From the human T2T-CHM13v2.0 reference genome, Homo sapiens, in assembly GCF_009914755.1 (NCBI RefSeq), contig NC_060942.1: a stretch of 64,000 nucleotides of DNA. One strand, written 5' to 3'. The position numbers and the translations under genes were made by a program. Below the pieces are notes generated by a model. That model did not search any database. It had not been told where the DNA came from and saw only the letters and a program-made list of their open reading frames with translations. Position 1 is the stretch's first letter; each line of letters starts with the position of its first letter. Positions 9,905 through 12,651 of the stretch are shown here, in pieces.

Positions 9905-12651
9905 AAATTCCTGGACACATACACCCTCCCAAGACTAAACCAGGAAGAATTTGAATCCTTGAATAGACCAATAACAGTTCTGAAATTGAGGCAATAATTA
10001 ATAGCCTACCAACCAAAAAAAGTCCAGGACCAGATGGATTCACACCTGAATTCTACCAGAGGTAACAGGAGGAGCTGGTACCATTCCTTCTGAAATTATT
10101 CCAATCAATAGAAAAAGAGAGAATCCTCCCTAACTCATTTTATGAGGCCAGCATCATCCTGATACCAAAGCCTGGCAGAGACACAACAAAAAAAGAGAAT
10201 TTTACACCAATATACCTGATGAACATTGATGCAAAAATCCTCAATAAAATGCTGGCAAACCAAATCCAACAGCACATCAAAGAGCTTATCCACCATGATC
10301 AAGTGGGCTTCATCCCCGGGATGCAAGGCTGGTTCAATACATGCAAATCAATAAACGTAATCCATCATATAAACAGAACCAAAGACAAAAACCACATGAT
10401 TATCTCAATAGATGCAGAAAAGGCCTTTGACAAAATTCAACAGCCCTTCATGCTAAAAACTCTCAATAAATTAGGTATTGATGGGATGTATCTCAAAATA
10501 GTAAGAGCTATTTATGACAAACCCACAGCCAATATCATGCTGAATGGGCAAACCTGGAAGCATTCCCTTTGAAAACTGGCACTAGACAGGGGTGCCCTCT
10601 CTCACCACTGCTATTCAACATACTGTTGGAAGTTCTGGCCAGGGCAATCAGGCTGGAGAAAGAAATAAAGCATATTCAATTAGGAAAAGAGGAAGTCAAA
10701 TTGTCCCTGTTTGCAGATGACATGATTGTATATTTAGAAAACCCCATCGTCTCAGCCCAAAATCTCCATAAGCTGATAAGCAACTTCAGCAAAGTCTCAG
10801 GATACAAAATCAATGTGCAAAAATCACAAGTATTCCTATACACCAATAACAGACAAACAGAGAGCCAAATCATGACTGAACTCCCATTCACAATTGCTTC
10901 ACAGTGAATAAAATACCTAGGAATCCAACTTATGAGGGATGTGAAGGACCTTTTCAAGGAGAACTACAAACCACTGCTCAACAAAATAAAGGAGGACACA
11001 AACAAACGGAAGATCATTCCATGCTCATGGATAGGAAGAATCAATATTGTGAAAATGGCCATACTGCCCAAGGTAATTTATAGATTCAATGCCATCCCCA
11101 TCAAGCTACCAATGACTTTCTTCACAGAACTGGAAAAAACTACTTTAAAGTTCATATGGAACCAAAAGAGCCTACATTGCCAAGACAATCCTAAGCCAAA
11201 ATAACAAAGCCGGAGGCATCACGCTACCTGACTTCAAACTATACTACAAGCCTACAGTAACCAAAACAGCATGGTACTGGCACCAAAACAGAGATATGGA
11301 CCAATGGAACAGAATAGAGCCCTCAGAAATAATACCACACATCTACAACCATCTGATCTTTGACAAACCTGACAAAAAACAAGAAATGGGGAAAGGATTC
11401 CTTATTTAATAAACGGTGCTGGGAAAATTGGCTAGCCATATGTAGAAAACTGAAACTGGATCCCTTCCTTACACCTTACACAAAAAGTAATTCAAAATGG
11501 ATTAAAGACTTAAATGTTAGACCTAAAACTGTAAAAACCCTAGAAGAAAACCTAGGCATTACCATTCAGGACATAGGCATGGGCAAGGACTTCATGTCCA
11601 AAACACCAAAAGCAATGGCAACAAAAGCCAAAATTGACAAATGGGATCTAATTAAACTAAAGAGCTTCTGCACAGCAAAAGAAACTACCATCAGAGTGAA
11701 CAAGCAACCTATAGAATGGGAGATGTTTGCACTCTACTCATCTGACAAAGGGCTAATATCCAGAATCTACAAAGAACTCAAACAAACTTACAAGAAAAAA
11801 ACAAACAACCCCATCAAAAAGTGGGCAAAGGATATGAACAGACACTTCTCAAAAGAAGACATTTATGCAGCCAAGAGACACATGAAAAAAAGCTCATCAT
11901 CACTGGCCATCAGAGAATTGCAAATCAAAACCACCATGAGATACCATCTCACACCAGTTAGAATGGCAATCATTAAAAAGTCAAGAAACAACAGGTGCTG
12001 GAGAGGATGTGGAGAAATAGGAACACTTTTACACTGTTGGTGGGACTGTAAACTAGTTCAACCGTTGTGGAAGACAGTGTGGCAATTCTTCAAAGATCTA
12101 GAACTAGAACTACCGTTTGACCCAGCCATCCCATTACTGGGTATGTATGCAAAGGATTATAAATCATGCTGCTATAAAGACACATGCACATGTATGTTTA
12201 TTGCAGCACATCACAATAGCAAAGACTTGGAACCAACCCACATGTCCATCAGTGATAGACTGGATTAAGAAAATGTGGCACATATACACCATGGAATACT
12301 ATGCAGCCATAAAAAAGGATGAGTTCATGTCCTTTGTAGGGACATCAATGAAGCTGGAAACCATCCTTCTCAGCAAACTATTGCAAGGACAAAAAACCAA
12401 ACACCACATATTCTCACTCATAGTTGGGAATTGAACAATGAGAACACTTGGACACAGGAAGGGGAACATCACACACCCAGGACTGTCGTGGAGTGGGGGA
12501 AGGGGGGAGGGATAGCATTAGAAGATATACCTAATGTAAATGACAAGTTAATGGGTGCAGCACACCAACATGGCACATGCATACATATGTAACAAACCTG
12601 CACGTTGTGCACATGTACCATACAATTTAAAGTATAATAAAAAAAAGAAAA
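9905..12651 (+). mobile_element. 5'-truncated L1PA (about L1PA5) inserted in the HERV-W leader
   Basis: Starts mid-ORF2; RT and C-terminal ORF2 fragments (302-aa ORF 11360-12268); L1PA 3'UTR, AATAAA 12636, A tail; TSD agaaaaatt 9896-9904 / 12652-12660 at a TT|AGAAAA site. Confidence 0.95.

What the first reader, a model, noticed from the sequence alone, without database searches (positions are those of the whole stretch)
10430..10982. Patchy gene conversion between two L1PA copies 14,139 bp apart
Seen: 10430-10713 (284 bp) is identical to 24569-24852, and 10769-10982 (214 bp) is identical to 24908-25121. Between them is a 55-bp patch with 5 differences, and the flanks are clearly diverged. 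The identical tracts share crippling changes: a frameshift (gggcaaacctggaag, giving NGQTWKHSL instead of NGQKLEAFPL) and a stop (tcacagTGA). The copies have different TSDs, so they are separate insertions. L1 cis-preference makes a broken common parent unlikely, and zero divergence over ~500 bp does not fit their age. Inference: recent, discontinuous interlocus gene conversion. A local mis-assembly is the alternative.
Basis: partly seen in the sequence, partly recalled or inferred. Interest (0 to 1): 0.8.

Follow-up and report, generated by a model that had tools for sequence, protein, structure and literature searches.

The report
Gene conversion between two neighbouring L1s
Two old, separately inserted L1 retrotransposon copies 14 kb apart on human chromosome 18 have swapped about 500 bases of sequence by non-allelic gene conversion, which is a clean example of a known process and not a new kind of thing.

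Summary
Window 10430-10713 equals 24569-24852 (284 bp) and 10769-10982 equals 24908-25121 (214 bp). A 55-bp patch with 5 differences lies between them.

The two elements are separate insertions. A is a 5'-truncated L1 of about 2.75 kb with a 9-bp target-site duplication. B is a full-length L1 of about 6.07 kb, nested in an older L1, with a different 16-bp duplication.

Outside the block the copies differ at 8.7 % of columns. No run of 284 bp arose in 200,000 permutations.

I polarised the differences against 57 unlinked copies from the same genome. The tracts hold 19 shared-derived states and 0 private ones. The flanks hold 15 shared, 76 A-private and 109 B-private. The shared frameshift occurs in 2 of 47 unlinked copies and the stop in 0 of 54.

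This is interlocus gene conversion. It happened within the last ~7 % of the elements' mean age, roughly 2-6 My or less. The donor is unresolved, with weak odds of 5:1 for A. One patchy event and two separate events cannot be told apart. An assembly artefact could not be tested with reads but is unlikely.

The phenomenon is known, so interest is modest.

The parts
9905..12651 (+). Copy A: a 5'-truncated L1 of about 2.75 kb (3' part of ORF2, 3' UTR and A-rich tail). It starts inside ORF2.
   Evidence: BLAST aligns 9904-12647 to 24041-26790 at 92.96 %. The ends were read. The tract region hits Pfam RVT_1.
9896..9904 (+). Target-site duplication of copy A, 5' copy (9-mer). The 3' copy is at 12652-12660.
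   Evidence: An exact 9-mer is found at both places.
12652..12660 (+). Target-site duplication of copy A, 3' copy.
20716..26784 (+). Copy B: a full-length L1 of about 6.07 kb whose reading frames are broken many times. It is inserted in an older L1.
   Evidence: The start of the 5' UTR was read. Pfam finds Transposase_22, Tnp_22_trimer, Exo_endo_phos, Exo_endo_phos_2 and RVT_1 in separate stop-to-stop frames.
20700..20715 (+). Target-site duplication of copy B, 5' copy (16-mer). The 3' copy is at 26785-26800 and matches at 15 of 16 positions.
26785..26800 (+). Target-site duplication of copy B, 3' copy.
18738..20715 (+). Older L1, about 74-76 % identical to A, that was split by the insertion of B. 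It continues at 26785-27246.
   Evidence: BLAST aligns 9904-11830 to 18738-20714 and 11813-12272 to 26782-27246.
10430..10713 (+). Converted tract 1 in A, 284 bp, identical to 24569-24852 in B. It carries the shared 1-bp deletion (frameshift) at 10549/10550.
   Evidence: It holds 11 shared-derived states and 0 private ones.
10714..10768 (+). Unconverted 55-bp patch (24853-24907 in B). It has 5 differences, and each copy keeps private states of its own.
   Evidence: Of the 5 differences, 3 are B-derived, 1 is A-derived and 1 is ambiguous.
10769..10982 (+). Converted tract 2 in A, 214 bp, identical to 24908-25121 in B. It carries the shared in-frame TGA at 10905-10907.
   Evidence: It holds 8 shared-derived states and 0 private ones.
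24569..25121 (+). The matching block in copy B: tract 1, patch and tract 2.

Best explanation
Two L1 elements of the same or neighbouring subfamilies inserted independently, in the same orientation, 14.1 kb apart. Each then decayed on its own, to about 8.7 % pairwise difference. Late in that history, a break or nick in the reverse-transcriptase region of one copy was repaired by homologous recombination. The other copy served as template and no crossover followed. This is non-allelic (interlocus) gene conversion.

The repair overwrote about 500 bp of the acceptor with the donor's sequence, including the donor's private mutations, a frameshift and a stop codon among them. The flanks and the 14-kb spacer were left unchanged.

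The 55-bp island that kept each copy's own bases has two possible origins. It may be a stretch of heteroduplex restored by patchy mismatch repair or template switching within one event. Or it may be the gap between two separate short events.

Shown here: separate insertions, tract identity beyond chance, and shared private mutations confined to the tracts. Inferred: the recombination mechanism, the timing, and one event versus two. Unresolved: which copy was the donor.
For: 1. Exact tracts of 284 and 214 bp at offset 14,139. Outside them, 192 of 2201 columns differ. In 200,000 permutations, none gave a run of 284 or more, or a second run of 214 or more.
2. The insertions are independent. A is truncated and B is full length, and there is no homology beyond the L1 bodies. 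The target-site duplications differ. B sits inside an older L1 whose two halves flank it.
3. I polarised the differences against 57 unlinked copies from the same genome: 28 of the 40 hits and 29 of the 40 hits, the loci that were cut out.
   - Tracts, 499 columns: 19 shared-derived, 0 private.
   - Outside, 2201 columns: 15 shared, 76 A-derived, 109 B-derived.
   - Fisher p = 1e-6 for the excess of shared states and 1.6e-17 for the lack of private states.
   - An earlier count with the 28 copies alone gave 17 shared and 0 private in the tracts, against 10, 66 and 99 outside.
4. The tract haplotype is unique to the pair among the hits scored. The next-best match to the 553 bp is 96 %. Two sub-windows of 81 and 91 bp give 100 % only for A and B, with the next hit at 96 %.
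5. The patch keeps private states of both copies: 3 B-derived and 1 A-derived. It was therefore never homogenised.
6. The tract sizes fit published values.
   - Human NAGC has a mean tract length of 250 bp (10.1101/135152, abstract read).
   - Allelic non-crossover tracts average 55-290 bp, and discontinuous tracts are reported in human meioses (PMC4404656, passages read).
   - Conversion between neighbouring Alu copies rises within about 10 kb (PMC8230782 and PMC6598467, passages read).
Against: - No reads, second assembly or outgroup genome could be consulted. An assembly or polishing artefact, and the true ancestral state of each locus, are therefore untested.
- The pair is about 8.7 % diverged, and the longest identical run outside the tracts is 64 bp. 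Published work ties NAGC to high identity. Models use thresholds of about 3-4.5 % divergence or 400 bp of perfect homology (10.1101/135152, section 7). Few IGC calls fall in duplications with more than 10 % divergence (PMC10172114, passages). Conversion here would be an uncommon, homeologous case.
- The 57 comparison copies are a biased sample. They are the best-scoring 40 of 5,158 candidates and 40 of 16,921. The set was visibly enriched for one homopolymer variant that A carries.
- The flanks also hold 15 shared-derived states, more than the one or two I would expect from parallel mutation. They may reflect a shared source lineage or older, eroded conversion tracts. I did not resolve this.
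Confidence: 0.88

Rival explanations
1. Assembly or polishing artefact. Reads from one copy were used to build or correct the other, so the identity is not real.
For: No call supports this directly. It stays open only because no reads or second assembly were available here.
Against: - The identical stretches are only 284 and 214 bp and are interrupted by a 55-bp patch with 5 true differences.
- They sit inside elements that differ at 8.7 % of columns on both sides, within unique flanks.
- A collapse or mis-join would be expected to affect read-length stretches, not sub-300-bp patches. This last point rests on general knowledge of long-read assembly and is not a test made here.
Confidence: 0.05
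2. Two independent short conversion events of about 200-300 bp each hit adjacent segments, instead of one discontinuous event.
For: - Each tract (284 and 214 bp at most, with marker spans of 10501-10672 and 10831-10952) is close to the published mean NAGC tract length of 250 bp (10.1101/135152, abstract).
- The patch retains private states of both copies, as an untouched gap would.
Against: - Both tracts have zero differences. Both events would therefore have to fall in the last ~7 % of the elements' history and land 55 bp apart, in a pair whose divergence should make conversion rare.
- One event with patchy repair or template switching is more economical, and such events are documented in humans (PMC4404656, passages).
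Confidence: 0.3
3. Common descent instead of exchange. Either A and B were copied from the same already-broken source element, or one is a segmental duplicate or daughter of the other. The tract would then be an inherited region that happened not to mutate.
For: - A and B agree at nearly all subfamily-type sites that are in strong linkage among the 57 copies.
- They share 15 derived states outside the tracts. A related source lineage is therefore plausible.
Against: - Inheritance would spread the shared private states over the whole 2.7 kb. Instead they are 5.8-fold denser in the tracts.
- Independent decay would also have put about 43 differences into the 498 bp, where there are none.
- Flanks, truncation points and target-site duplications differ, so neither copy is a segmental duplicate of the other.
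Confidence: 0.02
4. Purifying selection on an exapted piece of L1 keeps both copies the same.
For: None from any call.
Against: - The shared states are derived relative to the family and include a frameshift and a stop in the RT frame.
- Selection would preserve ancestral states. It would not create 19 identical new ones in two loci.
- No gene or functional element is annotated in the window (hub annotation).
Confidence: 0.01

Closest known systems
Non-allelic gene conversion between neighbouring Alu elements (Aleshin and Zhi 2010, as cited in PMC8230782 and PMC6598467; the Alu type-change survey in PMC8230782)
   Same: Independent retrotransposon insertions a few kb apart exchange short stretches after insertion, so that non-diagnostic private mutations become shared. 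The process depends on distance, with a range of about 10 kb.
   Different: - The partners here are L1 copies, not Alu copies.
- The tract of about 500 bp is longer than a whole Alu.
- The spacing of 14.1 kb is just beyond the quoted range.
- Both partners are old and about 8.7 % diverged.
- I saw Aleshin and Zhi only as cited, because the paper itself was not held.
Interlocus gene conversion in human gene duplicates and segmental duplications (Harpak et al., 10.1101/135152; Vollger et al., PMC10172114)
   Same: Transfer is unidirectional and non-crossover between paralogous sequences on one chromosome. The tract sizes are near the 250-bp mean estimated for human NAGC.
   Different: - Those surveys cover duplicated genes or segmental duplications, mostly above 95-98 % identity, and not dispersed repeat copies.
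- The SD events called from assemblies average 6.26 kb.
- The substrate here arose by two retrotranspositions, not by duplication.
Repair of a chromosomal LINE break by conversion from other LINE copies in mouse cells (Tremblay, Jasin and Chartrand 2000)
   Same: This would be the experimental counterpart: a double-strand break in an L1 repaired from a diverged endogenous L1.
   Different: I saw only the title in a reference list, plus one sentence on tracts as short as 13 bp in PMC1920257. The paper was not held. It describes cultured mouse cells and induced breaks, not a germline event fixed in a genome.
Complex or discontinuous non-crossover tracts in human meiosis (Williams et al. 2015, PMC4404656)
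   Same: Converted stretches are interrupted by unconverted markers. The authors attribute this to patchy repair of long heteroduplex or to template switching.
   Different: Those events are allelic, cluster over 20-30 kb, and were seen in pedigrees. Here the gap is 55 bp, the event is non-allelic, and it is inferred from one genome.

Membership tests
Interlocus (non-allelic) gene conversion tract | The two sequences are distinct loci of independent origin or long separation, not alleles or a fresh duplicate. | tested here: met
   The truncation points, flanks and target-site duplications differ. B is nested in an older L1.
Interlocus (non-allelic) gene conversion tract | A stretch of identity is significantly longer than the overall divergence allows (a GENECONV-type fragment test). 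| tested here: met
   The runs are 284 and 214 bp, against a next-longest of 64. None of 200,000 permutations reached them.
Interlocus (non-allelic) gene conversion tract | History is incongruent: private post-insertion mutations are shared inside the tract but not outside it. | tested here: met
   The tracts hold 19 shared and 0 private states in 499 columns. The flanks hold 15 shared and 185 private in 2201 columns. Fisher p = 1e-6 and 1.6e-17.
Interlocus (non-allelic) gene conversion tract | There is no exchange of flanks and no copy-number change (non-crossover outcome). | tested here: met
   Divergence returns to about 8-9 % on both sides of the block, and each copy keeps its own flanks.
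Interlocus (non-allelic) gene conversion tract | The pre-conversion state is seen at the acceptor locus in an outgroup species or another haplotype, which gives donor, acceptor and date. | not testable with these tools
   No primate or second human assembly is held. The only hint is a Poisson ratio of about 5:1 for A as donor.
Interlocus (non-allelic) gene conversion tract | The sequence is confirmed by reads that span each tract. | not testable with these tools
   No read data are available.
LINE-1 (L1) retrotransposon | ORF1 and ORF2 (endonuclease and reverse transcriptase) domains lie in order on one strand. | tested here: met
   In B, Pfam finds Transposase_22 and Tnp_22_trimer, then Exo_endo_phos and Exo_endo_phos_2, then RVT_1 twice. 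In A the tract region hits RVT_1. All the frames are broken.
LINE-1 (L1) retrotransposon | There is an A-rich 3' end and flanking target-site duplications. | tested here: met
   No repeat library is held. The best unlinked copies are 93-96 % identical, which fits a primate-age L1. The number in the name was not determined.
Segmental duplication | Homology continues beyond the repeat into the flanking unique sequence. | tested here: not met
   The alignment stops at the L1 ends, and B extends 3.3 kb further 5' as L1.

The most novel reading that the evidence does not exclude
The block records a single, very recent non-allelic conversion between homeologous L1 copies only about 91 % identical. 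It would be specific to the human lineage and perhaps still polymorphic. Its 55-bp unconverted island would be a natural footprint of patchy heteroduplex repair in the human germline.

If that holds, old dispersed repeats well beyond the identity range assumed for NAGC still exchange sequence. Pairs like this one could then be mined to map conversion outside segmental duplications. They would also show how far conversion distorts divergence-based ages of repeats.
Probability: 0.35. Interest if true: 0.4.

Novelty: new member of a known kind. Interest (0 to 1): 0.27.

Why it matters
The window gives one well-bounded natural example of sequence exchange between dispersed L1 copies, with three consequences.

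- **Element dating.** Conversion can move inactivating mutations between elements. It can also reset local divergence, which distorts ages read from divergence to a consensus.
- **Identity range of recombination.** The exchange occurred at about 8.7 % divergence, with no flanking run of identity longer than 64 bp. That is outside the range where conversion is usually modelled or detected in human duplicates, so it bears on how much homology the recombination machinery needs.
- **Scope.** There is no sign of function. No gene is annotated nearby and both elements are dead. The value is as a case study, or as one data point for a genome-wide survey.

Tried and rejected
1. **Donor from subfamily-diagnostic sites.** I compared the copies picked by the tract with those picked by A's flank.
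   - Only one column separated the two sets, a homopolymer length variant that the search heuristic had selected for.
   - A and B agree at nearly all linked subfamily sites, so the method cannot tell the donor.
I did not pursue them.
2. **Donor from mutation load.** A Poisson comparison gives about 5:1 for A. This is too weak to state as a result.
3. **PRDM9-type 13-mer (motif recalled).** The window has 3 hits, against 0.72 expected by chance, and 4 of 100 shuffles had at least 3. The only hit near the pair is at 12495-12507 in A's G-rich 3' UTR, 1.5 kb from the block. It is not informative.
4. **GC bias.** It cannot be judged without knowing the direction of transfer. The patch sites split 2:1 either way.
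5. **Earlier findings of this scan.** These were closed to the session.
6. **Papers not held.** Aleshin and Zhi 2010 and Tremblay et al. 2000 could not be read.
7. **L1-L1 conversion in print.** Three searches were run: on gene conversion and LINE-1, and on gene conversion, L1PA and L1 elements. Among the papers listed and the passages I opened, I saw no systematic survey of L1-L1 conversion in humans. One case of intrachromosomal conversion within an L1 locus appears in PMC1920257. This is not proof that no survey exists.

Full report
**Observation**

The coordinates hold exactly. Window 10430-10713 is identical to 24569-24852 (284 bp), and 10769-10982 is identical to 24908-25121 (214 bp), both at an offset of 14,139.

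A global alignment of the two elements places five differences in the 55-bp patch, at 10714, 10734, 10747, 10749 and 10768. The nearest outside differences are at 10428/10429 and at 10983.

Over the whole shared length the copies are 92.96 % identical. In the gapped alignment, 199 of 2754 columns differ. Outside the 553-bp block, 192 of 2201 columns differ, or 8.7 %.

The identical runs, in order of length, are 284, 214, 64, 55 and 50. I placed the 199 differences at random 200,000 times. The longest run never exceeded 236, and no trial had a second run of 214 or more. The pattern is therefore real and not chance.

**What the two elements are**

Copy A runs from about 9905 to 12651.
- It begins inside ORF2 and ends in an A-rich tail.
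- It is flanked by an exact 9-bp direct repeat at 9896-9904 and 12652-12660.

Copy B runs from 20716 to 26784, about 6.07 kb.
- It starts with what I recognise (recalled, not tested) as the usual beginning of a primate L1 5' UTR.
- It is flanked by a 16-bp repeat at 20700-20715 and 26785-26800 that matches at 15 of 16 positions.
- It lies inside an older L1, whose two halves (18738-20714 and 26782-27246) align to consecutive parts of A at 74-76 %.
- Its stop-to-stop frames hit Pfam in the expected order: Transposase_22 and Tnp_22_trimer, Exo_endo_phos and Exo_endo_phos_2, then RVT_1 twice. They are spread over several frames, so the element is long dead.

The identical block lies in the reverse-transcriptase domain. 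Two frames from A's tract hit RVT_1, with E = 0.0022 (below the curated cut-off) and 6.8e-18.

- The frame shifts at the motif found at 10546 and 24685.
- An in-frame TGA lies at 10905-10907 and 25044-25046.

No homology extends beyond the L1 bodies. These are two separate insertions, not a segmental duplication.

**Test against unlinked copies**

The window's own genome could be searched. The 553-bp block returned A (100 %) and B (99 %), and then copies on other chromosomes at 96 % or less. Only 40 of 5,158 candidates were scored.

I took the 28 unlinked loci that were cut out there, plus 29 cut out from a search with A's right flank (40 of 16,921 candidates scored). I aligned them with A and B. 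At each column where at least 70 % of the covered copies agreed, I classed A and B against that common state.

| Region | Columns | Shared-derived | A-derived | B-derived |
|---|---|---|---|---|
| Two tracts | 499 | 19 | 0 | 0 |
| Flanks | 2201 | 15 | 76 | 109 |
| Patch | 55 | 0 | 1 | 3 |

- One further patch site was ambiguous, and one flank column was derived in both copies with different states.
- Shared-derived states are 5.8 times denser in the tracts (Fisher p = 1e-6). The absence of private states there has p = 1.6e-17.
- The earlier count with the 28 copies alone gave the same picture: 17 shared and 0 private in the tracts, against 10, 66 and 99 outside.

The density of shared states in the tracts is 3.8 %. 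That matches the private load of a single copy (3.5-5.0 %). This is what is expected if one copy's sequence, with all its own mutations, replaced the other's.

- The 1-bp gap that causes the frameshift is present in 2 of 47 unlinked copies covering that column.
- The base that makes the stop is present in 0 of 54.
- Searches with 81 and 91 bp around each lesion returned only A and B at 100 %, with the next hit at 96 %. In each search 40 candidates were scored, of 938 and 947.
- A few of the 81-bp hits have the same length as the query, so the gap may recur now and then in a short A run. The whole haplotype does not recur.

The lesions are thus not a common family variant.

**Mechanism**

The pattern is the classical signature of non-allelic gene conversion: homologous repair of one copy from the other without crossover. 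This is inference from the pattern and from the literature, not something the tools can show directly.

The tract sizes fit published values.
- Each tract is at most 284 or 214 bp. The markers span 10501-10672 and 10831-10952.
- The mean tract length estimated for human NAGC is 250 bp (10.1101/135152, abstract).
- Allelic non-crossover tracts average 55-290 bp (quoted in PMC4404656, passages).

The patch keeps private states of both copies, so it was never homogenised. Either it is an island restored by patchy mismatch repair or template switching within one event, or it is the gap between two events. Both mechanisms of the first kind were proposed for the discontinuous tracts seen in human pedigrees (PMC4404656, passages). 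I lean to one event, about 0.6 to 0.3. Two events would both have to be very recent and land 55 bp apart in a pair that should convert rarely.

**Timing**

At the divergence of the flanks, 498 bp would carry about 43 differences. It carries none.

The 95 % bound of three expected differences puts the event within the last 6.9 % of the mean age of the two elements. In years this is 1.8, 3.0 or 6.0 My for per-site rates of 1.7e-9, 1.0e-9 or 0.5e-9 per year. The rates are recalled values, not from a call.

The event may therefore be specific to the human lineage and could still be polymorphic. Neither point could be tested here.

**Direction**

A and B agree at nearly all sites that are in strong linkage among the 57 copies. 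They belong to the same or adjacent subfamilies, so diagnostic positions cannot name the donor.

The only column that separated my two comparison sets was a homopolymer variant that the search heuristic had selected for.

The observed 19 shared states fit A's load better than B's: 20.6 expected against 28.1, a Poisson ratio of about 5:1. This is a hint only.

**Results against the reading, and limits**

- The pair is far more diverged than the substrates in which human conversion is usually seen. Models invoke thresholds of 3-4.5 % divergence or 400 bp of perfect homology (10.1101/135152, section 7). [quoted passage not shown]
- No reads or second assembly were available, so the artefact alternative rests on argument only. 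The argument is that sub-300-bp patches interrupted by true differences inside well-diverged, uniquely flanked elements are not what a collapse looks like.
- The comparison copies are a small, non-random sample.
- The 15 shared-derived states in the flanks are more than parallel mutation should give. They may reflect a shared source lineage or older, eroded tracts. I left this open.

**Comparison with what is known**

- Conversion between neighbouring Alu copies is well described. It rises within about 10 kb, and most work on conversion between transposable elements has been on Alu (PMC8230782 and PMC6598467, passages).
- For L1, one intrachromosomal conversion inside an L1 locus is reported in PMC1920257. 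That paper also cites a mouse-cell study of break repair between LINE copies, which I could not read.
- A recent preprint lists gene conversion among the processes that erode old L1 history (PMC13192797, passage).
- In three searches, among the papers listed and the passages I opened, I saw no systematic survey of L1-L1 conversion in humans. That does not show that none exists.

**Verdict**

This is a new instance of a known process, with two mildly unusual features: high divergence of the partners and a discontinuous tract. I put interest at about 0.27.

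Noticed in passing
window 12875-13240: Just downstream of copy A there are two tandem copies of a 183-bp unit, 88 % identical (family D12).
   Followed up: no
window 31137-31409 and 33057-33706: A segment of about 270 bp is repeated in direct orientation about 1.9 kb away at 96-97 % identity. The two matching pieces have different offsets (1920 and 2297). About 377 bp therefore appears to be inserted in the second copy, at the place masked as repeat 33155-33530 (families D10 and D16).
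   Followed up: no
window 7657-8411 and 17702-18390: Three collinear matches at 88-91 % lie upstream of copy A and upstream of the older L1 that hosts B. They are probably pairs of Alu-type repeats in the same order. I did not check whether this is chance or an old duplication.
   Followed up: no
window 9904-12647 vs 24041-26790, outside the tracts: Fifteen derived states are shared by A and B in the flanks. Several are rare among the 57 unlinked copies, for example 10251 (1 of 44), 11487 (0 of 55) and 12626 (0 of 28). They may mark a common source lineage or older, eroded conversion tracts.
   Followed up: partly
window 11369-11374 (copy A) and loci L033-L060: A carries one extra A in a homopolymer run. 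26 of the 29 copies picked by the search with A's flank have it, against 0 of 27 picked by the tract search. This shows that the genome search picks candidates by rare shared words, so the comparison sets are biased.
   Followed up: yes
window 20716-26784: Copy B carries about 1.4 times more private changes than A over the shared length: 109 against 76 in 2201 columns. Yet both agree at subfamily-type sites. B may be older, or the full-length element may have mutated faster.
   Followed up: no
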